Source: Verrucomicrobiales bacterium (GTDB lineage Bacteria; Verrucomicrobiota; Verrucomicrobiia; Methylacidiphilales; JAAUTS01). From it: a stretch of 20,839 nucleotides of DNA. The notes beneath the pieces are model-generated. The model ran no database searches. It saw nothing but the letters and a program-made list of their open reading frames with translations, and was not told the origin of the DNA. Location of the stretch: the NCBI GenBank assembly GCA_031265105.1, contig JAISDC010000082.1:1-20839 (forward strand), written 5' to 3'. How positions within the stretch are numbered: position 1 is the first letter of the stretch; each line of letters begins with the position of its first letter. A program made the position numbers and the translations under genes. Below, one piece after another: positions 1 to 18,129 of this stretch.

Positions 1-2811
1 GCCGGGCCATTGCCACGGCCCTGGAGTCCGTGACCTCGACCGACGCCACCGCCTGGTTCCGTTCCTGCGGATATACGCCGTGGCCTGTTGAATCCATCTA
101 GTTTTGATGTGCTCTAGGGTGGTGTGGGCTTTCACCAACAGCGGGGGCATGGTCAGCGGGTCGTAGAGGTTGGCTAGGGTGGCGGTGGGGTAGTTGGCGC
201 GGATGTTCAGCACGGCGCGGGCGGCTTGCTCGACTTTGGCGCGTTGCGCCGCTGATGGTGTTGGCCACGGGAAATTGTTGTACACAAGTTTATTGGAGTA
301 GCGGTAGCGAGATTCTAAACGCCCGCAGACTTGTTTGGTCCATGCCATGTGCATCGCTGACGATAACACGCCAAAATGATAAAGCGTAGCTTCAGGGATG
401 GCGGCACAACTATTATGCACGATGGTTTTTGTCGTAAAATAACCGAACGGAATATAAGTACGTGTTTCCGAAGTGTGAAGTGGAACCAAAATATAAGTTT
501 TTTTCGGTTGCCGAATTTCCGCGAACAGCGACGGTGTTTTTGCTACCTCGCGGGTGGGAGCTTTTTTGCTCGCCAAACGAAAATCTTTGCACGCTTGGAC
601 ACGCTTTTTCACGCCGGGATTTTCCGCAATTATTTTTGGCGGTGCATCCACCAGCCACAGACAATAGCGCCGCTGACCATGAAGAAATTCTTCGGCGGAA
701 ACCATCGGGCGCACATACGGTGCCGCTGACGGATTGTCTTTGATAAATTGCGCGCGTTCGTTTTCCTCAATAATCAAATGCCCACCGTCAGCGGGTTTGT
801 TGCCGTAGATGATGGACGGCACATCGCACAATGGTTTGGAGCGCGACGTAATCACACTGTCAGCGCCTTCAATTAAATACGGGTTGATGTTTTTGACCGC
901 GCTGATGGTGGAATGTTCATCGTCAGCGACGTAGTCGTAGATTTTTTTGTGGTCACGGTCAGCGATGCCGAAACCGATGATGACGCAATGCACGTGCGCT
1001 TTGCCGGGCGCTTCGCTCGCCCATTTGAAGGTGTGGTGGGCGAAGTGAATTTTAACGCCACGCTGGAACAAACGCGACCAGAGCGCGCCGGGTTGTTCGC
1101 CTTGCGTGATGCTGTTGGTGGAGACGAAGGCTGCGCTGATGGTGAAATTTTTTTGCATATACTCCACTGCTTTCACATACCATGCGGTGACGTAATCCAA
1201 AATACCCGTGCCGTTGACGGTGCCGAAGACGCGCTCCATGTCTTGCGATTGCTCGACGGTCATCAAATGTTTGCCGACAAACGGCGGATTGCCCAGCACG
1301 TAGCTGCACGCTGACGGTGGCAGGATTTTTTCCCAGTCCACCGTCAGCGCGTTGGCGAGGTGGATGTGCGGGGCGGCTTTGAGTGGCAGGCGTTTGAATT
1401 GTTGTCCCATTTTTTCCGCCAGTTCGCTGTTACTTTGGTGGTCTTGCAGCCACAGGCCGACTTTGGCGATGCGGGCGGGCCATTCGCTGATTTCAATGCC
1501 ATAGAATTGGTCAACGTCCACGCACGCGAGGTTGCGGATGTCGAGTTCGGTTTGGACTTGACCGGCAGCGTCCCGATGCAGCGCGACGATGACGGCGTTT
1601 TCCATGACGCGCAGTTCGCGGTAGGCGAGGATGAGGAAGTTGCCGCAGCCGCAGGCGGGGTCGAGGAGTTTGATGTGACGCAGTTTTTTTGGGAACTCTT
1701 TCAAGCGCGTTACGCGGCGCGAGGAGCGGTCGCTGACGATGAGGCGCAGTTCGTCGCGGAGTTCGTTGAGGAACAGGTCGTTGAGCAACTTCATGATGTC
1801 GCGCTCGCCGGTGTAGTGCGCGCCGAGTTGCCGCCGCGCCTGGTCGTCCATGACGCCTTGGAAGAGCGAGCCGAAGATGGCGGGGGAGATTTTCGCCCAC
1901 TGGTAATCGCAGCAGCGGAGGAGCGCGTCGCGTTGCGCGGTGTCGAAGTGGCACACGGGCAGACGGTCGGCGAAGAGTCCGCCGTTGACGTGCGGGAACA
2001 GGTCGAATGTTGCGTGGCGCTGACGGCGCGCCGGCTCGGTGTCGAGTGTCCACCATAGTTCCGCGAGGGTGCCGCCGAGGTGGCGCGGCTCGGTGTGGCG
2101 GATGAGTTCGGTGAAACTTTGCGGCTCGAAGATGAACGAGTCTTCCGCGAACAGGCAAAAGAGCAGGCGCACGAGGTAACGCTCCAGTTCGCGGCGCGGG
2201 TAGTTGGTCGCTGACAGTGAGTCGTGCAAGTCGGCGAGGAGTTGCGCGGCTTTGATGTTCGCCGCGCGCTCGGTGTGGACGCGGACGCGCTGTTCGCCGA
2301 CGAGGAAGGCGAAGTCGCGGACGTGTTGCGGCAGGTCGCTGAGGGTGAACTCGGTGAGGTGATATTGGTGGTCGTCGAAGAGGGGGAGACCGAGGCGGTG
2401 GTCTTGCGGGTCGAGGTCAATGATGCGGAAGCGGGCGAAGTCGCACAGGACGATGAAGCGCGGGAGGTCGTTATGGCGACCGTCAGCGGCGAGGTCATGG
2501 ACGTAGCCGATGGCTTGCTGCTGCGCGGTGTCAATGTCGGCGCCGCGTGATTTGTGTTCGACGAGCATGACGCCTTTCCAGAAAAAATCAATGAACCCGC
2601 GCCCGCCGCTGACGGTGGCGACGGGGACTTCAAACGCGCCGAGGACGCGGCTGGGCAGACCGAAGGCGGCGAGGAGTTCGTGCCAGAAGAGTTGTTTGTC
2701 GGCGTTTTCGCGGGAGGCAGTTTTCCATGTGTCGGCGAAGCGCGCGGCGTTGGCGCGGATTTCCGCCCAAGTGAGCCGCGCTGACGGTGTGGGGTGCCGC
2801 TGTGGTTCCAT
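1..2811 (-). CDS. MmeI-family Type IIL/IIG restriction-modification enzyme (endonuclease plus N6-adenine methyltransferase fusion). Partial: the C-terminus lies beyond the window start.
   Basis: I translated the reverse complement myself. Frame-0 reading starts at ATG 2811..2809 (MEPQRHPTPSARLTWAEIRANAARFADTWK...). The upstream in-frame stop is the GNAT TAG at 2889..2887. N-terminal nuclease motif D-x9-E-x-K sits in GRGFIDFFWKGVMLVEHKSRG, as in MmeI (GFVDLFWPGILLIEMKSRG). Further blocks that match the MmeI sequence as I recall it: YLVRLLFCLFAEDSFIFE, RISPAIFGSLFQGVMDDQARRQLGAHYTGE, LDPACGCGNFLILAYRELR (SAM motif I), VLGNPPFVGK (NPPF motif IV), AFVSTNSITQGEQ, AHVHCVIIGFG, GRLESRYRYSNKLVYNNFPWP, LYDPLTMPP. 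There is no in-frame stop down to position 1, so the gene is at least 936 codons. It is not in the ORF track because it has no in-window stop. The last ~35 in-window codons are R/W-rich and atypical. Confidence 0.85.
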   Translation of the reverse strand, partial: MEPQRHPTPSARLTWAEIRANAARFADTWKTASRENADKQLFWHELLAAFGLPSRVLGAFEVPVATVSGGRGFIDFFWKGVMLVEHKSRGADIDTAQQQAIGYVHDLAADGRHNDLPRFIVLCDFARFRIIDLDPQDHRLGLPLFDDHQYHLTEFTLSDLPQHVRDFAFLVGEQRVRVHTERAANIKAAQLLADLHDSLSATNYPRRELERYLVRLLFCLFAEDSFIFEPQSFTELIRHTEPRHLGGTLAELWWTLDTEPARRQRHATFDLFPHVNGGLFADRLPVCHFDTAQRDALLRCCDYQWAKISPAIFGSLFQGVMDDQARRQLGAHYTGERDIMKLLNDLFLNELRDELRLIVSDRSSRRVTRLKEFPKKLRHIKLLDPACGCGNFLILAYRELRVMENAVIVALHRDAAGQVQTELDIRNLACVDVDQFYGIEISEWPARIAKVGLWLQDHQSNSELAEKMGQQFKRLPLKAAPHIHLANALTVDWEKILPPSACSYVLGNPPFVGKHLMTVEQSQDMERVFGTVNGTGILDYVTAWYVKAVEYMQKNFTISAAFVSTNSITQGEQPGALWSRLFQRGVKIHFAHHTFKWASEAPGKAHVHCVIIGFGIADRDHKKIYDYVADDEHSTISAVKNINPYLIEGADSVITSRSKPLCDVPSIIYGNKPADGGHLIIEENERAQFIKDNPSAAPYVRPMVSAEEFLHGQRRYCLWLVDAPPKIIAENPGVKKRVQACKDFRLASKKAPTREVAKTPSLFAEIRQPKKTYILVPLHTSETRTYIPFGYFTTKTIVHNSCAAIPEATLYHFGVLSSAMHMAWTKQVCGRLESRYRYSNKLVYNNFPWPTPSAAQRAKVEQAARAVLNIRANYPTATLANLYDPLTMPPLLVKAHTTLEHIKTRWIQQATAYIRRNGTRRWRRSRSRTPGPWQWPG

Positions 2812-2886
2812 CGAAAATATGCTGCGGATACGACCGTGAAAAGTCAACGGGGCTGATGGTGATGGCACCGCCGGTTTTGCGTGGCG

Positions 2887-3285
2887 CTAACGGTGGGCGT
2901 TATCAATGACCCCGCCGCGGAGAATGTGGAAGCCGTGGTCGCGGTAGAAGGATTCTTTTTCCGGGACAAAGGTGGTCCAGATACATTGGATGCCGTCCGT
3001 GGTCAGCGCGGTGACCGCGGTGGAGATTAGTTTTGCGCCGAGACCTTGTTTTTGATACTGCGGGTGGACGATGATGTTGACTAACAAAGCGTCGCCAACG
3101 CCGTCACTGATGACGTTTAAGAAAGCCGCCAGCCGCTGACGGTCACGCGCCGTGAAATAGCAGTACGAACCGCGCAACACCCGGGCTTGGGTGTGTTCGC
3201 AAGGTTCCCAGCCGACCGCCGCGCGCAATGCGGCGATTTCTCCGGGGGTGACGGGCTGGTTGCGTTCGATGGGTGGCAGTGTCAT
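2887..3285 (-). CDS. GNAT-family N-acetyltransferase, 132 aa
   Basis: ATG at 3285. Acetyl-CoA binding block Q/R-x-x-G-x-G/A is present (HPQYQKQGLGAKLISTAV). Size and beta-alpha layout are typical of small GNATs. The stop is 75 bp upstream of the RM gene start on the same strand. Confidence 0.75.
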   Translation of the reverse strand: MTLPPIERNQPVTPGEIAALRAAVGWEPCEHTQARVLRGSYCYFTARDRQRLAAFLNVISDGVGDALLVNIIVHPQYQKQGLGAKLISTAVTALTTDGIQCIWTTFVPEKESFYRDHGFHILRGGVIDNAHR

Positions 3286-3337
3286 GATATGCTATTAAAC
3301 CATATTCCTGCGCTAGCCCATCGTTTTTTCTCATCTC

Positions 3338-3366
3338 TTGAACCATCGATTGATTTCGTTTACCAT
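3338..3366 (+). promoter_or_regulatory. candidate sigma70-like promoter for the MIF-like gene (TTGAAC - 17 bp - TACCAT). The -10 hexamer ends 5 nt before the ATG, implying a leaderless or near-leaderless mRNA.
   Basis: TTGAAC at 3338-3343, a 17-nt spacer, TACCAT at 3361-3366, ATG at 3372. There is no Shine-Dalgarno sequence upstream of the ATG. The region is AT-rich and divergent, shared with the GNAT/RM operon. Confidence 0.3.
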
Positions 3367-3371
3367 GCGGC

Positions 3372-3716
3372 ATGCCTGTTCTCAAAATCCAAACCAATCT
3401 TGTCCTCAGCAGCCAGGAACAGCAAGACGTGCTAAAAGCCGTCTCGCGATTGGCGGCCAAGGAGCTTGGCAAGCCGGAGCGTTATGTCATGGTCAGCGTC
3501 GAGACCGCCGCCGCCATGCTGTTCGGCGGCACCGACGATCCCTGCGCATTCGTTGAATTATGCAGTCTCGGACTGCCCGCTGACCAGGCGGCGCGCTTGT
3601 CGGCGATGATTTGCGGTTTATTAAAAGAGTCGCTGAACCTCGACCCGCGGCGGGTGTATATCAGGATGTCCGATCACCCGGCCAACCTGTGGGGGTGGAA
3701 CGGGGAGACGTTTTGA
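3372..3716 (+). CDS. macrophage migration inhibitory factor (MIF)-like protein of the tautomerase superfamily, 114 aa, Pro-1 type
   Basis: MPVLKIQTN...YVMVSV...GGTDDPCAFVELCSLGL...RVYIRMSDHPANLWGWNGETF aligns end to end with mammalian MIF (MPMFIVNTNVPRA...[32 protein letters not shown]...[22 protein letters not shown]). Length is identical (114 aa). The catalytic Pro immediately follows the Met. Confidence 0.8.
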   Translation: MPVLKIQTNLVLSSQEQQDVLKAVSRLAAKELGKPERYVMVSVETAAAMLFGGTDDPCAFVELCSLGLPADQAARLSAMICGLLKESLNLDPRRVYIRMSDHPANLWGWNGETF

Positions 3717-3812
3717 TTGAAGATTGATGATGGCCAATTGACTATTTGCCGATTGCGCGCGGCGCGCCAACTAACAAATTATCAATATTCAATGATCAAT
3801 GGAAAATTCCCC

Positions 3813-5621
3813 ATGTCGCTCCTGCAACTCAACAACATCACGCTGCAATACGGCGCGGCGCCCTTGCTCGCTGGCGTCGATTTCCAGCTCGACGAGGGCG
3901 AGCGCGTGTGCTTGCTGGGCCGCAACGGCACGGGCAAGACCAGCCTGCTGCGGGTCATCGCCGGCGAGGAAACGCCCAACGGCGGCGAGGTCATCGTCAG
4001 CGGCGGTAAAATCATCACGCGGCTGCCGCAGGAAATTCCTGACAACTTAACCGGCGACACCGTCAGCGTCATTCGCGACGGACTGCCCGCTGACCGTCAC
4101 GAGGAGGAATGGGAAACGGCACGGCGCATCGAGACGCTGCTGGCGGCGATGAAGCTGCCCGCTGACGCTGACTTCACGGCGCTGTCCGGCGGCCTGCGGC
4201 GTCGCGTGCTGCTGGCGCGGGCACTGGCGGGGCGGCCCGACGCGCTGCTGCTCGACGAGCCGACCAACCATCTCGACATCGACTCGATTCTGTGGCTGGA
4301 GAATTTTTTGCTGGCGCAAAAAACCGCGTTGCTGTTCACCACGCACGACCGCGCGTTCCTGCAGCGGCTGGCCACGCGCATCGTCGAACTGGATCGCGGC
4401 AAACTCTCCTCGTGGGACTGCGATTACGCAACCTACCTTGTCCGCAAGGAAGCGTGGCTCGAAGCCGAGGAAAAAAACTGGGCGACATTCGATAAAAAAC
4501 TGACGCAAGAAGAAGCCTGGCTGCGGCAAGGGGTCAAAGCCCGCCGCACCCGCAACGAGGGCCGGGTCCGCGCGCTGGAGCAAATGCGCCGCGAGCGCAG
4601 CCAGCGGCGCGAACGGCTCGGCAACGCCAGGCTCAGCCTCAGCGAGGCCGAGGTGTCGGGCCGCAAAGTCATCACCGCCGAAAACCTCGGCTTCACCTAC
4701 GGCGACCGCCCCATCGTCAGCGGCTTCAGCACGGAAATCTGGCGCGGCGACAAAATCGGCATCATCGGCCCGAACGGCGCGGGCAAGACCACGCTACTGA
4801 AATTATTGCTGGGGCAACTATCACCGTCAGCGGGCCGCGCGCGGCACGGGACGAATTTGCAAGTTGCCTATCTCGACCAACTCCGCGCCATCAATAACGA
4901 GAAAACCGTGGCGGAGAATGTCGCCGGCGCCGCGGCAAGCATCACATTCCAGGGCCGGTCGCGACATATTCATAGTTACTTGTCAGACTTCCTGTTCGCG
5001 CCCGACCGCGCGCGCTCTCCCGCCAAGGTTTTGTCCGGCGGCGAGCGCAACCGGCTGCTGCTGGCAAAATTGTTTTTGCAACCCGCCAACGTGCTGGCGC
5101 TTGACGAACCGACCAACGACCTCGACGCCGAGACGCTGGAGTTGCTGGAAAATTTATTGGTGGAATACGACGGCACGCTGCTGCTGGTGTCGCACGACCG
5201 CGCCTTCCTGGACGAAGTTTGCGCCAGCACGCTGGTGTTCGGCGCTGACGGTGAGGTGACGGAATACCATGGCGGCTATAGCGATTGGTTGAAGCACGCT
5301 GCCAATGAACGAAAAATATCATCCGCTGACACTGACACAAAAAAATCCCCCGCTGACGTGGCGGTGAAAAAATCCTGCCGCCCGCGCAAATTCCTTAATC
5401 GCGAACAATGGGAGCTTGACGCCCTGCCTGGCAAAATCGAGCGACTCGAAGCCGAGCAAGAGCAAGTTTCGCAACAACTCTGGGATCCCGAACTATACCA
5501 AAAATCGCCTGAGAAAATCCCCGAACTCAAGTCACGTTCAGCGGCGCTGGAACAGGAAAGCAAAGCCGCCTACGCCCGCTGGGAGGAACTGGAGCAGCTC
5601 CGCCGGGAGTGCGGTGGCTGA
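3813..5621 (+). CDS. uup: ABC-F family ATP-binding protein Uup (tandem ABC domains plus C-terminal coiled-coil/DNA-binding tail)
   Basis: MSLLQLNNITLQYGAAPLL...GRNGTGKTSLLRV (Walker A 1), LSGGLRRRVLLARAL (signature 1), LLLDEPTNHLD (Walker B 1), GPNGAGKTTLLK (Walker A 2), LSGGERNRLLLAKL (signature 2), LALDEPTNDLD (Walker B 2), and the QEEAWLRQGVKARRTRNEGRVRALEQMRRER linker. It is collinear with E. coli Uup (MSLISMHGAWL...). The ORF-track start at 3717 is a TTG immediately after the MIF stop, so I prefer the in-frame ATG at 3813. Confidence 0.9.
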   Translation: MSLLQLNNITLQYGAAPLLAGVDFQLDEGERVCLLGRNGTGKTSLLRVIAGEETPNGGEVIVSGGKIITRLPQEIPDNLTGDTVSVIRDGLPADRHEEEWETARRIETLLAAMKLPADADFTALSGGLRRRVLLARALAGRPDALLLDEPTNHLDIDSILWLENFLLAQKTALLFTTHDRAFLQRLATRIVELDRGKLSSWDCDYATYLVRKEAWLEAEEKNWATFDKKLTQEEAWLRQGVKARRTRNEGRVRALEQMRRERSQRRERLGNARLSLSEAEVSGRKVITAENLGFTYGDRPIVSGFSTEIWRGDKIGIIGPNGAGKTTLLKLLLGQLSPSAGRARHGTNLQVAYLDQLRAINNEKTVAENVAGAAASITFQGRSRHIHSYLSDFLFAPDRARSPAKVLSGGERNRLLLAKLFLQPANVLALDEPTNDLDAETLELLENLLVEYDGTLLLVSHDRAFLDEVCASTLVFGADGEVTEYHGGYSDWLKHAANERKISSADTDTKKSPADVAVKKSCRPRKFLNREQWELDALPGKIERLEAEQEQVSQQLWDPELYQKSPEKIPELKSRSAALEQESKAAYARWEELEQLRRECGG

Positions 5622-15981: not shown

Positions 15982-16554
15982 TTACTCACCGTCAGCGAGC
16001 GGCTCGACGGCGACGCCGGTGCCCTCCAGCCGCAGCACCCGCACCTCCGTGCCGAACGGCGCCGCGCGGTCGCTGACGTTGAACGCCTTGACGGAAACTT
16101 TGCGCCCGCCGCTGACGACGGTGATTTCACCCGCGCCCGCGCCGCGCGGCGGCAGCGGCAAATACACGGTGCCGCTGGCGCCGACAGTTTGCGTCAACTG
16201 GAACGTGCCGTCCTCCGCCAGCCGCGCGAACTGGCGCATCAGCCACACCAGCAGCGCCGCCAGCGCGAACCCGACCAGCGCCGCGAGCAGGGTCGCGGAC
16301 ACGGCGCCGAGGCCGAGTTGCAAACAGCACAAGCCGCCCCAGCCGCTGCCGGTGGCGAACGCGGTGATGGCCTTGAACGAAAACCAGTGTACGCCGGCGT
16401 CACCGTCAGCGTCGGGCGAGTCGAAATCACCGTCAGCGCCGAACAAAGCCATGCCGCCCTGGGCGACGAGCATGGCGGTGCCGAGGATGCCGAGCGTCCA
16501 AAAAATCCGCGCGGCCAGCTCCAGCCCGTCCCACCATTCGACGATAGCATTCAT
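15982..16554 (-). CDS. NfeD-family membrane protein (short YuaF-like form), partner of the downstream flotillin
   Basis: N-terminal hydrophobic helices and a C-terminal OB-fold-like block (GEITVVSGGRKVSVKAFNVSDRAAPFGTEVRVLRLEGTGVAVEPL). This is the conserved nfeD-SPFH operon arrangement. The ORF-track start 16593 is a TTG; I prefer ATG 16554 (MNAIVEWW...). Confidence 0.7.
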   Translation of the reverse strand: MNAIVEWWDGLELAARIFWTLGILGTAMLVAQGGMALFGADGDFDSPDADGDAGVHWFSFKAITAFATGSGWGGLCCLQLGLGAVSATLLAALVGFALAALLVWLMRQFARLAEDGTFQLTQTVGASGTVYLPLPPRGAGAGEITVVSGGRKVSVKAFNVSDRAAPFGTEVRVLRLEGTGVAVEPLADGE

Positions 16555-16676
16555 GCGGGGCCAAAGGTAACGCGCCGGCCCGCCGCCTAACAAGCAAAAT
16601 CAGCGCCAGGTGGAAATTTTCGGCGCCGCGGCGCGCTGCCTTTGCGGTCATTGCTTGCCGGCCCGCCTTTGGCAGT

Positions 16677-16717: not shown

Positions 16718-16837
16718 CGCGCCCCGTTGCCGCAAACGGCTGATAGTGAAAGCTCCGCCAGCAGGGGGGCTTAAGCCAAAGCGGAAAAGCGGCAACTCCT
16801 TGAAGATGATTGACCTGGGCCATAACCGCAGGACGCC

Positions 16838-16894
16838 GCGCTCACGCGCTCACGCGCTCACGCGCTCACGCGCTCACGCGCTCACGCGCTCACG
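16838..16894. repeat. perfect octanucleotide tandem repeat (GCGCTCAC) x7
   Basis: Seven head-to-tail copies run from 16838 to 16893, preceded by a partial unit. They lie in the divergent intergenic region between nfeD and the 42-bp repeat locus. The unit length is not a multiple of 3. Confidence 0.9.
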
Positions 16895-17059
16895 CGCTCA
16901 CGGTATGACTCTTGCCCTGATTCCTTAATTTCCCCGCCAGTTTTTACCCTTTTCATTCCCCATGCGGTAACATTCCGGCAGGATGCCACCCCGTCACGAT
17001 TAGCGTCACCTCCCGCACGGTATCATACGATTCCTACCTGGCGAGAGCCGTTTCATGCA

Positions 17060-17377
17060 GTGCAGGAAGCGCATACTGCATTGCATGATTTGCCTCCTGC
17101 GGCGCGGGAACCGAATACTGCAACGCATGACGCGCATCCTGCAACGCAGGAGTCGAATACTGCACTGCATGATTCACCTCCTGCGGCGCGGGAACCGCAT
17201 ACTGCAACGCATGACGCGCATCCTGCAATGCAGGAGTCGAATACTGCGCCGCATGATTCACCTCCTGCGGTGCGGGAAGCGCATACTGCAACGCATGACA
17301 CACCTCCTGCCGAGCAGGATTACCCACTTTTGGCGGCTGTGTGGCCGCCATTAAACCAACCCCAAAGGAACCCATGA
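17060..17377 (+). CDS. possible 105-aa repeat protein (14-aa HD/P/T-rich repeats) encoded by the 42-bp array. Coding status and strand are uncertain.
   Basis: GTG start at 17060. Its TGA stop overlaps the ATG of the next gene (ATGA at 17374-17377), which suggests translational coupling. The unit length is a multiple of 3. A minus-strand alternative exists (ATG 17351 to stop 17034: MAATQPPKVGNPARQEV, then a 14-aa repeat alternating PAPQEVNHAAQYST / PALQDARHALQYAV). Neither candidate has a Shine-Dalgarno sequence. Confidence 0.25.
   Translation: MQEAHTALHDLPPAAREPNTATHDAHPATQESNTALHDSPPAAREPHTATHDAHPAMQESNTAPHDSPPAVREAHTATHDTPPAEQDYPLLAAVWPPLNQPQRNP
17073..17324. repeat. 42-bp tandem repeat array, about 6 units, with two alternating unit types forming an 84-bp higher-order repeat
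   Basis: Units start with ATACTGCA at 17073, 17115, 17157, 17199, 17241 and 17283. Odd units read ...GCATGATTYRCCTCCTGCGGYGCGGGAASCGM. Even units read ...AACGCATGACGCGCATCCTGCAAYGCAGGAGTCGA. Units contain short stem-loops such as CCTGCaacGCAGG. All six frames are open across the array. Confidence 0.9.
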
Positions 17378-18129
17378 ATAGAAACCAACATGCAGTCAGC
17401 AACATCAGCGTCAAAAAATACATCCACAAAACCTGGGACGGTATTGACGACTTCTTCACCCAATACGGCGACAACCTCGTCAACGTCCAGACCAAAACCG
17501 ACCCCGGTCTCGCCGACGCCGACATCGCCAATGTCAAGGAAACCACCGCCGCCTACGGCAAATTGAACCAAGCCATTGACGAAGTGGAAAGACTCCTCGC
17601 CGCCCTGCGCGCCCTGCGCATCCAACTCCTCACCCAGCAAACTATGGACCCCGTCCGCGTCCCCCTCATCCAACCCCTCACCACCCTCCTTGCCGCCATC
17701 GAAGGCAAACGCGGCGGCTTGCTCTGGCAAGAAGACCGCCTCACCGACCGCATCTTCCGCAGCCCCAGATGCACCCAGGAAGACTACGAAATGCTCGGCA
17801 TCGTTTACAAACCCAACACTTCAGCCCCCATTGATAACCTCATCGGCAAACTCTACGCCGTGTTTGACGGCGGCAAAGTTCCGATCCATTGGACCCTCCC
17901 GCGCGGCTACCACAACGCCCGCCTCACCGCCAGCACCAACCACGGCGAATGGGTACTACTCTACGAAGGCAGCGAAAGCCACTTCATCGACGCGCGCCCC
18001 ATCCCCGCCATCTCCGAAATCCGCTCCTACAAACTCGAAATCATGGAAACCGGCAAACCCATCGGCAAACCCGCCATCGACAAAATCCTCGTCGGCCAAG
18101 ACATCTCCGTCGAAGAAACCAAACTCTAA
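17374..18129 (+). CDS. hypothetical protein, 251 aa. No domain recognised; no signal peptide.
   Basis: AAAGGAA Shine-Dalgarno sequence 4-5 nt upstream of ATG 17374. Protein-like composition (MNRNQHAVSNISVKKYIHKTWDGIDDFF...). Codon usage has more A/T-ending codons than the core genes and resembles the adjacent autotransporter. A long inverted-repeat terminator follows it. Confidence 0.6.
   Translation: MNRNQHAVSNISVKKYIHKTWDGIDDFFTQYGDNLVNVQTKTDPGLADADIANVKETTAAYGKLNQAIDEVERLLAALRALRIQLLTQQTMDPVRVPLIQPLTTLLAAIEGKRGGLLWQEDRLTDRIFRSPRCTQEDYEMLGIVYKPNTSAPIDNLIGKLYAVFDGGKVPIHWTLPRGYHNARLTASTNHGEWVLLYEGSESHFIDARPIPAISEIRSYKLEIMETGKPIGKPAIDKILVGQDISVEETKL

What the first reader, a model, noticed from the sequence alone, without database searches (positions are those of the whole stretch)
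3286..3716. Bacterial MIF homologue with an apparently leaderless promoter arrangement
A 114-aa protein aligns over its full length with mammalian macrophage migration inhibitory factor, including the N-terminal catalytic Pro (MP...) and the C-terminal GWNG/STF region.

MIF-family tautomerases are uncommon in bacteria and are sometimes linked to host interaction.

The candidate -10 hexamer TACCAT ends only 5 nt before the ATG and there is no Shine-Dalgarno sequence. This suggests a leaderless transcript.

The gene is divergent from the GNAT/RM operon and precedes uup.
Basis: partly seen in the sequence, partly recalled or inferred. Interest (0 to 1): 0.5.

Follow-up and report, generated by a model that had tools for sequence, protein, structure and literature searches.

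The report
Bacterial MIF-like tautomerase, probably leaderless mRNA
A Verrucomicrobiales bacterium carries an ordinary member of the known bacterial MIF-like tautomerase family, and its promoter sits so close to the start codon that the mRNA probably has no leader, a habit shared by about a fifth of the genes in this bacterial group.

Summary
ORF 3372..3716 (+) encodes a 114-aa protein that is a full-length MIF-family member. It scores 81.7 bits against Pfam PF01187 (cut-off 22) and is 37% identical to human MIF. The predicted fold has TM 0.92 to the Prochlorococcus MIF crystal structure. It sits in a broad bacterial/archaeal MIF clade, not in 4-OT, and does not look like a recent eukaryotic import.

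TACCAT (3361-3366) ends 5 nt before the ATG. TTGAAC lies 17 nt upstream of it, there is no Shine-Dalgarno sequence, and an in-frame stop excludes any other start.

Alone this promoter match is weak (8/12). Comparison gives it weight:
- In the closest relatives, 5 of 8 distinct upstream sequences keep TANNNT 5-6 nt before the ATG, and none has an SD.
- Among 72 distant orthologues, 46 have an SD and 1 has such a hexamer.
- Across 73 genes of this clade, 14 show the arrangement, against 2.5 expected.

The leaderless arrangement is therefore probably real but clade-wide, as already measured in Akkermansia. No transcription start was measured.

Both components are known kinds, so interest is low.

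Side lead: the asymmetric word CGCTGAC(GGTG) is hyper-abundant, about 4 copies per kb, and is unexplained.

The parts
3286..3371 (.). 86-bp divergent intergenic region between the GNAT and MIF-like genes. It must hold both promoters unless one lies inside a coding region.
3338..3343 (+). Candidate -35 hexamer TTGAAC (4/6 to TTGACA), 17 nt upstream of the -10.
   Evidence: sequence; -35 scoring of clade promoters: mean best score 3.36/6 in the 14 leaderless-type genes against 2.64/6 in the others
3361..3366 (+). Candidate -10 hexamer TACCAT (TANNNT class), ending 5 nt before the ATG.
   Evidence: Hexamers at the same place in orthologues: TATAGT+6 (L002, L081), TACAAT+6 (L003), TATCAT+5 (L082), TTAAAT+6 (L084)
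3372..3374 (+). ATG start codon and inferred transcription start (+1 at A3372, or within a few nt of it).
   Evidence: Inference from -10 geometry (a -10 at -11..-6 or -12..-7 relative to the A). The clade-wide peak of TANNNT at 5-6 nt supports it. Not measured.
3372..3716 (+). CDS of the 114-aa MIF-family tautomerase homologue. Pro-1 follows Met removal; Lys34 (= Lys32 of human MIF) and Tyr96 (= Tyr95) are kept; Asn97 is replaced by Arg; there is no CXXC motif.
2887..3285 (-). Divergent GNAT acetyltransferase gene (context only). It also lacks an SD.
3813..5621 (+). Downstream Uup-like ABC-F ATPase gene. It has its own -10-like GAAAAT at 3802-3807, 5 nt before ATG 3813. MIF-Uup adjacency recurs in 9 Verrucomicrobia loci.

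Best explanation
The gene encodes a cytoplasmic enzyme of the MIF branch of the tautomerase superfamily. The family is annotated as phenylpyruvate/hydroxyphenylpyruvate-type keto-enol tautomerases.

Inferred mechanism of the enzyme: after the initiator Met is removed, the N-terminal proline acts as the catalytic base. The active-site pocket is expected to form between subunits of a homotrimer. Trimer formation and activity are inferred from the family, not shown here.

Inferred mechanism of expression: a sigma-70-type promoter (TTGAAC-17 nt-TACCAT) has its -10 element ending 5 nt before the ATG. Transcription should therefore start at or within a few nucleotides of the A of the start codon. 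The mRNA has no leader and no Shine-Dalgarno site, and the ribosome would initiate on the 5'-terminal AUG.

This mode is not special to the gene. The clade is SD-poor, and roughly one gene in five has the same arrangement. In this clade the MIF gene has exchanged the SD-led start seen in other bacteria for a leaderless-type start.

Shown: family membership, fold, key residues, the promoter-like hexamers, their conservation and the clade-wide positional peak. Inferred: the transcription start, the initiation mechanism, the enzyme activity and its physiological substrate.
For: Protein:
- Pfam MIF 81.7 bits, full length.
- Best PDB sequence match is Prochlorococcus MIF 2xcz at E=2.6e-22; mammalian MIFs score about 1e-17.
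- 37% identity to human MIF.
- The AlphaFold model has pLDDT 91.4, with strand/helix order E H E E H E, i.e. two beta-alpha-beta units. Foldseek gives TM 0.92, rmsd 1.2 A to 2xcz.
- Pro2, Lys34, Arg94 and Gly108 are invariant in 47 sequences, and Tyr96 is present in 45 of 47.
- A neighbour-joining tree places it within bacterial sequences, apart from human MIF and D-DT.

Expression:
- The geometry is read directly from the sequence.
- TANNNT is kept 5-6 nt before the ATG in the window/L001, L002, L003, L081 and L082, although the rest of the upstream DNA does not align.
- Close clade: 5/8 with the hexamer, 0/8 with an SD. Distant orthologues: 1/72 with the hexamer, 46/72 with an SD.
- Of 73 clade genes, 14 have TANNNT at 5-6 nt. 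Shuffles give a mean of 2.5, and 0 of 5000 reach 14. The offset histogram peaks sharply at 6 (10 genes) and 5 (4 genes), against about 0.9 elsewhere. All 14 start with ATG.
- Published data: 10% of Akkermansia muciniphila transcription starts are leaderless (PMC4782308). TANNNT about 12 nt upstream of the start is the accepted signature of bacterial leaderless genes (PMC3160421). Some Verrucomicrobia are SD-scarce (PMC10783764).
Against: - No transcription start data exist for this organism.
- The promoter match is only 8/12, and the scan tool did not call it.
- Three close relatives have no clean TANNNT at 5-6 nt: L083, L085/L086 and L084, which has TTAAAT.
- Gene starts in the clade survey come from automatic gene calls. 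These could favour starts preceded by a common motif and so inflate the peak.
- Asn97 of human MIF is Arg here, and the substrate is unknown.
- The neighbours (GNAT, Uup, GATase, Tex) give no functional clue.
Confidence: 0.72

Rival explanations
1. The mRNA has a normal leader. Transcription starts further upstream, in the 86-bp intergenic region or inside the GNAT gene. Translation starts without an SD, through an unstructured A/U-containing leader and ribosomal protein S1, as in SD-poor bacteria. On this view the TACCAT hexamer is not the active -10.
For: - The clade is SD-poor in general: about 8 of 73 genes have an SD core of 4 nt or more. Absence of an SD therefore does not by itself imply a leaderless mRNA.
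- Other weak -10-like hexamers exist upstream, TATGCT near 3288 and CATATT near 3301.
- The promoter scan did not call TTGAAC/TACCAT.
- L083 and L085/L086 lack the hexamer at the expected distance.
Against: - TANNNT is kept at a fixed 5-6 nt in otherwise diverged upstream regions.
- The clade-wide peak sits at exactly the offsets expected if the A of ATG is +1. Mere A/T-richness would give a broad distribution.
- The upstream alternatives have poorer -35 partners.
Confidence: 0.18
2. The hexamer next to the ATG is a chance match with no function, and the gene is read through from a neighbouring transcript.
For: - A single TANNNT at 5-6 nt is expected by chance in about 3.4% of genes.
- In L089 the upstream gene (Tex) is on the same strand.
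Against: - In the window the upstream gene is divergent, so read-through is impossible.
- Recurrence in 5 of 8 close orthologues against 1 of 72 distant ones is far beyond chance.
Confidence: 0.04
3. The protein is a host-directed mimic of animal MIF, released by a gut-associated bacterium to modulate host immunity as parasite MIFs do, rather than a housekeeping enzyme.
For: - 37% identity and the same fold as animal MIF.
- MIFs of eukaryotic parasites are secreted and act on the host (PMC6826473).
- The names of the sister MAGs resemble host-gut metagenome bins. This is my own unverified impression; a literature search for the names found nothing.
Against: - There is no signal peptide; the protein begins MP... 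with a catalytic Pro.
- The closest relatives outside the clade are from bog, soil and peat Verrucomicrobia, methanotrophs, chemoautotrophic symbionts, Thermotogae and Asgard archaea.
- The tree places it among bacterial sequences.
- The mammalian CXXC motif is absent.
- Neighbourhoods are housekeeping: ilv genes, ProS, Uup.
Confidence: 0.03

Closest known systems
Prochlorococcus marinus MIF homologue (PmMIF, PDB 2xcz; Wasiel et al. 2010, cited in PMC6826473)
   Same: Best sequence match in the PDB (E=2.6e-22) and best structural match (TM 0.92, rmsd 1.2 A). It has the same length, and shares Pro-1, GKPE..YVM, RxYI and the C-terminal WGWNGxTF. It is a bacterial, cytoplasmic protein for which tautomerase activity is reported.
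   Different: Only 36% identical, and from a different phylum. Position 97 is Gly in PmMIF and Arg here. No activity data exist for this protein.
Mammalian MIF / D-dopachrome tautomerase (Pfam PF01187)
   Same: Full-length homology (37% identity to human MIF). Pro-1, Lys32 and Tyr95 equivalents are kept, and the fold is the same.
   Different: No CXXC motif (CAFV instead of CALC), and Asn97 is Arg. It groups with bacterial sequences rather than eukaryotic ones. No cytokine role is expected.
4-oxalocrotonate tautomerase family (PF01361 / TIGR00013)
   Same: Same superfamily logic: a beta-alpha-beta unit with a catalytic N-terminal proline. Weak sub-threshold matches are seen (19 and 22.5 bits).
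   Different: 4-OT subunits are about 60-70 aa single beta-alpha-beta units. This protein is a 114-aa double unit that scores far above threshold for MIF and below threshold for 4-OT.
Bacterial leaderless ('TA-led') genes, as in Actinobacteria, Deinococcus and Akkermansia muciniphila (PMC3160421, PMC4782308)
   Same: TANNNT -10 box starting about 11-12 nt before an ATG, with no SD. Many genes of the same lineage share the arrangement.
   Different: There is no measured start site here. The evidence is positional and comparative only.

Membership tests
MIF family (Pfam PF01187; MIF branch of the tautomerase superfamily) | Full-length match to the family profile above the curated threshold | tested here: met
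   81.7 bits against a cut-off of 22, residues 2-114 on profile 1-113/114. 97 PDB MIF-family sequences matched at E<=0.01.
MIF family (Pfam PF01187; MIF branch of the tautomerase superfamily) | Proline immediately after the initiator Met (catalytic Pro-1) | tested here: met
   The sequence starts MPVL. The start is fixed by an in-frame stop at 3351-3353. Pro2 is invariant in 47/47 sequences in two alignments.
MIF family (Pfam PF01187; MIF branch of the tautomerase superfamily) | About 115-aa subunit made of two beta-alpha-beta units (MIF fold) | tested here: met
   AlphaFold2 model with pLDDT 91.4 and elements E3-8 H14-32 E40-44 E59-65 H70-88 E95-101. Foldseek TM 0.89-0.95 to MIF crystal structures.
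MIF family (Pfam PF01187; MIF branch of the tautomerase superfamily) | Active-site residues equivalent to human Lys32, Ile64, Tyr95 and Asn97 | tested here: inconclusive
   Lys34 and Tyr96 are conserved. Ile64 is Leu. Asn97 is Arg (Gly in PmMIF). The core is kept but the pocket rim differs.
MIF family (Pfam PF01187; MIF branch of the tautomerase superfamily) | Homotrimer with active sites at subunit interfaces | not tested
   Only a monomer was modelled.
MIF family (Pfam PF01187; MIF branch of the tautomerase superfamily) | Keto-enol tautomerase activity (phenylpyruvate, 4-hydroxyphenylpyruvate, D-dopachrome) | not testable with these tools
   Requires recombinant enzyme.
4-oxalocrotonate tautomerase family (PF01361 / TIGR00013) | Match above threshold to the 4-OT profile, and a subunit of about 60-70 aa | tested here: not met
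   PF01361 19 bits (cut-off 22). TIGR00013 22.5 bits (cut-off 56.9). The protein is 114 aa.
Bacterial leaderless (TA-led) genes | TANNNT -10 box whose first T lies about 11-12 nt before the start codon | tested here: met
   TACCAT at 3361-3366 and ATG at 3372. The same is seen in 5 of 8 close orthologues.
Bacterial leaderless (TA-led) genes | No Shine-Dalgarno sequence, and an AUG start codon | tested here: met
   No GGAG/GAGG/AGGA in -17..-5, and the start is ATG.
Bacterial leaderless (TA-led) genes | Lineage-wide positional peak of the TA signal | tested here: met
   14/73 genes at 5-6 nt. Shuffle mean 2.5, and 0/5000 shuffles reach 14.
Bacterial leaderless (TA-led) genes | Transcript 5' end at (or within a few nt of) the start codon | not testable with these tools
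   No transcriptome data are available. Needs 5'-RACE, dRNA-seq or Cappable-seq.

The most novel reading that the evidence does not exclude
The MIF-like protein of this Verrucomicrobiales lineage is exported or released and acts on an animal host as a cytokine mimic, as parasite MIFs do. That would make it a bacterial example of MIF-based host manipulation. A milder version is much more likely (about 0.6) but only modestly interesting: the clade records a recent switch of one orthologous gene from SD-led to leaderless initiation, as part of a genome-wide change of initiation mode.
Probability: 0.03. Interest if true: 0.6.

Novelty: new member of a known kind. Interest (0 to 1): 0.2.

Why it matters
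It matters little as a discovery. Bacterial MIF-like tautomerases and leaderless genes in Verrucomicrobia are both documented.

Its modest value is as a clean comparative example. The same orthologous gene uses an SD in most bacteria and a -10 box abutting the ATG in one Verrucomicrobiales clade, so initiation mode turns over with the lineage rather than with the gene.

It also bears on annotation. In this clade gene starts should be called with a leaderless model, and absence of an SD is not evidence against a start.

The physiological substrate of bacterial MIFs remains open, and this locus gives no new handle on it.

Tried and rejected
1. Promoter/terminator scan of 2800-4200. It did not list the TTGAAC/TACCAT pair (8/12) and found no terminator on the + strand between the MIF and uup genes.
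2. NCBIfam. It has no specific model for this protein; the only match is a sub-threshold 4-OT hit.
3. Conserved gene neighbourhood as a clue to function. Gammaproteobacterial loci share ilvC/ilvH/ilvI, DUF4124, MIF, ProS and a class IV aminotransferase. Verrucomicrobia loci share Uup or GATase. These are housekeeping synteny with no pathway link.
4. Sample origin. A literature search for the MAG names and accessions found nothing relevant, so no habitat claim is made.
5. Rfam and tRNA scans of the whole window found nothing.
6. Side hypothesis that the hyper-abundant word CGCTGAC is the recognition site of the resident MmeI-family enzyme.
   - The specificity residues are L/N/S/E/R/R at MmeI positions 751/773/774/806/808/810. 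Under the published code (PMC2731914) I read these as NN(Y)(R)AC, which fits ..TGAC.
   - It was rejected on two counts. The MmeI homologue of a second word-rich genome has signature ENLKDR (which I read as ..CGAG), yet its contig has 4.2 words/kb. An unrelated contig encoding an enzyme with the same LNSERR signature has no enrichment.
7. A Chi-like role for that word is unlikely, because there is no strand skew (38+/41-).

Full report
**What is there**

The window is a contig of a Verrucomicrobiales metagenome-assembled genome. The identical protein is on record as LBK71_03710.

ORF 3372..3716 (+) encodes 114 aa, MPVLKIQTN...ANLWGWNGETF. An in-frame TGA at 3351-3353, with no ATG/GTG/TTG after it, leaves ATG 3372 as the only start. 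This is also the start needed to place Pro directly after the initiator Met.

Upstream lies an 86-bp intergenic region, and then a divergent GNAT gene at 2887..3285 (-). Behind the GNAT gene is a long ORF at 1..2811 (-) that runs off the window. It is a close MmeI homologue (PDB 5hr4, E=2e-250). Downstream, a Uup-like ABC-F ATPase starts at ATG 3813.

**The protein**

- Pfam MIF (PF01187) matches residues 2-114 at 81.7 bits, against a cut-off of 22. The 4-OT models stay below threshold: PF01361 at 19 bits (cut-off 22) and TIGR00013 at 22.5 bits (cut-off 56.9).
- The best solved relative is the Prochlorococcus marinus MIF homologue 2xcz (E=2.6e-22). Next come an entry deposited as 'MIF homologue', 8ap3 (Arabidopsis MDL2), and the mammalian MIFs at about 1e-17.
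- Identity to human MIF is 37% over the whole length.
- An AlphaFold2 model built on 47 homologues has pLDDT 91.4 and two beta-alpha-beta units. It superposes on 2xcz with TM 0.92 and rmsd 1.2 A, and on human, plant and Trichomonas MIFs with TM 0.89-0.95.
- In alignments of 47 sequences, Pro2, Lys34 (human Lys32), Arg94 and Gly108 are invariant, and Tyr96 (human Tyr95) is nearly so.
- Human Ile64 is Leu here, and Asn97 is Arg. The mammalian CXXC motif is absent (CAFV).

**How common, and where it belongs**

The family is small but well established. A full HMMER scan of 1.84 billion cluster representatives found 1538 at E<=1e-3 and 564 at E<=1e-10.

In a set of one genome per species, 97 stretches encode relatives. 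They come from Verrucomicrobia of bogs, peat and soils, Methylocaldum, tubeworm symbionts, Thermotogae, Myxococcota and Asgard archaea. Sources call them 'phenylpyruvate tautomerase' or 'phenylpyruvate tautomerase MIF-related protein'.

A rough neighbour-joining tree puts the window protein with its close relatives inside this bacterial group, apart from human MIF and D-DT. There is equally no sign of a recent eukaryotic origin.

Bacterial MIFs with tautomerase activity are already in the literature (Wasiel et al. 2010, as cited in PMC6826473).

**The promoter arrangement**

TACCAT occupies 3361-3366, followed by gcggc and the ATG. TTGAAC at 3338-3343 lies 17 nt upstream. No SD-like run precedes the start.

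On its own this is weak. It is an 8/12 match that the scan tool did not list, and shuffles put a TANNNT at 5-6 nt in about 3.4% of upstream regions.

Comparison changes the picture. I collected the closest orthologues, 68-89% identical in protein.

| Locus | Hexamer | nt before ATG |
|---|---|---|
| window / L001 | TACCAT | 5 |
| L002, L081 | TATAGT | 6 |
| L003 | TACAAT | 6 |
| L082 | TATCAT | 5 |
| L084 | TTAAAT | 6 |
| L083, L085/L086 | unclear | - |

The rest of the upstream DNA is not alignable between these lineages, and the upstream neighbour differs (GNAT, Tex, GATase).

- Among 8 distinct upstream sequences of this clade, 5 have TANNNT at 5-6 nt and none has an SD core.
- Among 72 distinct upstream sequences of more distant orthologues, 46 have GGAG/GAGG/AGGA at -17..-5 and only 1 has such a hexamer.

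**It is a clade-wide habit**

I compiled 73 gene starts from the window and from the clade contigs L089, L090, L091 and L082. The number of TANNNT hexamers at each distance from the start codon peaks at 6 nt (10 genes) and 5 nt (4 genes). All other distances from 0 to 39 average about 0.9.

- Fourteen genes of 73 carry the arrangement, against 2.5 in shuffles, and none of 5000 shuffles reaches 14.
- All 14 start with ATG. Their best -35 matches are somewhat better than in the other genes (mean 3.36 against 2.64 of 6).
- Only about 8 of the 73 genes have an SD core of 4 nt or more.
- In the window itself, RmuC (TAAGCT+6, start 9627) and the PLD/cardiolipin-synthase-like gene (TAGGCT+6, start 11251) show the arrangement. 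Uup has the related GAAAAT+5.

A -10 box at -12..-7 or -11..-6 relative to the A of ATG is exactly what is expected if that A is +1. It is the accepted computational signature of bacterial leaderless genes (PMC3160421). It agrees with direct mapping in Akkermansia muciniphila, another member of Verrucomicrobiales, where 10% of transcription starts coincide with start codons, against 0.4% in E. coli (PMC4782308). It also agrees with the report that some Verrucomicrobia are SD-scarce (PMC10783764).

One caveat applies. Most of the 73 starts are automatic gene calls, which could favour starts preceded by a recurrent motif. The MIF start is independent of that.

**Most likely mechanism**

The gene encodes a cytoplasmic MIF-type tautomerase whose Pro-1 is exposed after Met removal. 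It is transcribed from a sigma-70-type promoter whose -10 abuts the ATG, which gives a leaderless mRNA translated from its 5'-terminal AUG.

- Family, fold, residues and the sequence arrangement with its conservation are shown.
- The transcription start, the mode of initiation, trimer formation, the activity and the substrate are inferred.
- I put the whole statement at about 0.72. The protein identity is near certain, and the leaderless part is about 0.75.

The main rival is a leadered but SD-independent mRNA from a promoter further upstream (0.18). Chance plus read-through is excluded in the window by the divergent neighbour. A host-directed cytokine mimic is not excluded, but nothing supports it: there is no signal peptide, the relatives are free-living, and the neighbourhoods are housekeeping.

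**Verdict**

This is a new member of the bacterial MIF-like tautomerases, expressed in the way that is usual for its lineage. Interest is 0.2.

**Side observations**

The word CGCTGAC (extended consensus G-C-CGCTGAC-G-G-T-G-A) is the most frequent 7-mer of the window.

- It has 79 copies, or 3.8 per kb, split 38+/41-. The core hexamer GCTGAC occurs 86 times against 13.3 +/- 3.7 expected, the 8-mer GCTGACGG 26 times against 1.4, and the 11-mer CGCTGACGGTG 18 times.
- It occurs in coding DNA in every permitted frame and in both orientations.
- In aligned Uup orthologues it is created by synonymous and by amino-acid-changing substitutions, at positions only partly shared between genomes.
- The same density is found in L001, L003/L091, L084/L090, L083 and L093, but not in the other loci fetched with the MIF query (median 0.24 per kb over all loci held).
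- The sister group L089/L082/L081 instead carries CGCTAAC, 21 observed against 2.7 expected, often at homologous places. It looks like a dialect.
- There is no strand skew, so a Chi-like role is unlikely. The word is asymmetric, unlike cyanobacterial HIP1.
- A link to the resident MmeI enzyme was tested and not supported.

It remains unexplained, and it is probably more interesting than the finding I was given.

Noticed in passing
whole window 1-20839; also L001, L088, L003/L091, L084/L090, L083, L093: A hyper-abundant asymmetric word, CGCTGAC (consensus GnCGCTGACGGTGA). It has 79 copies (3.8/kb, 38+/41-) and is the most frequent 7- to 12-mer. The core hexamer GCTGAC occurs 86 times against 13.3+/-3.7 expected, GCTGACGG 26 times against 1.4, and CGCTGACGGTG 18 times. 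It occurs in all permitted reading frames and both orientations. It is created by synonymous and non-synonymous changes in Uup orthologues. It is absent from the other loci fetched with the MIF query (median 0.24/kb). Its density resembles HIP1 or DNA uptake sequences, but it is not palindromic and shows no strand skew. Unexplained.
   Followed up: partly
L089 (1-20345), L082, L081: The sister lineage lacks CGCTGAC enrichment. It carries a one-base variant instead, CGCTAAC/CGCTAAY (21 observed against 2.7 expected; consensus CGCTAAYnRYG), often at positions homologous to CGCTGAC sites in the other genomes. This resembles the 'dialects' of uptake sequences.
   Followed up: partly
window 1-2811 (-): An MmeI-family type IIL restriction-modification gene (5hr4 E=2e-250, PD-ExK motif kept), truncated by the contig end and therefore missing from the ORF list. 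Its specificity residues (L,N,S,E,R,R at MmeI 751/773/774/806/808/810) suggest a site NN(Y)(R)AC, which resembles the ..TGAC of the abundant word. The link failed two checks (L093: different signature but same word density; L092: same signature but no enrichment).
   Followed up: yes
window 9627 (-), 11251 (-), 3813 (+): Other genes of the window have a -10-like hexamer 5-6 nt before the ATG and no SD: RmuC (TAAGCT+6), a PLD/cardiolipin-synthase-like gene (TAGGCT+6) and Uup (GAAAAT+5). They are part of the clade-wide leaderless-type pattern.
   Followed up: yes
window 16837-16902: A perfect tandem repeat (CGCGCTCA) x 8.2. It lies in the region between minus-strand ORFs 15982..16593 and 17034..17546. 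The unit is not a multiple of three, so it may be a slipped-strand (phase-variation) tract. There is no Rfam hit in the region.
   Followed up: no
window 17062-17310: A repeat with 21/42/84-bp periods (3 copies of 84 bp at 90% identity) inside ORF 17034..17546 (-). That ORF has only a weak sub-threshold 'Alanine_zipper' lipoprotein hit. It is probably a repetitive surface or lipoprotein.
   Followed up: no
L054, L056, L057, L058 (Promethearchaeota MAGs), MIF homologue start: Four Asgard MIF homologues have ATA where the ATG should be (..aagaggtgctataagcATACCATAC..). There is an in-frame TAA upstream, no ATG/GTG/TTG in between, and a GAGGTG SD-like element a few nucleotides (about 8) upstream. 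This looks like an ATA start codon before the catalytic Pro. A fifth Asgard locus (L030) has ATG.
   Followed up: no
protein P0102: A 333-aa protein with three MIF-like stretches (E=2e-29). It may be a single-chain covalent version of the MIF homotrimer.
   Followed up: no
L025-L062 (Gammaproteobacteria loci): Conserved neighbourhood ilvC - ilvH - ilvI ... DUF4124 - MIF - ProS - class IV aminotransferase in 13-17 loci. In Verrucomicrobia, MIF-Uup adjacency recurs in 9 loci. Neither suggests a pathway.
   Followed up: partly
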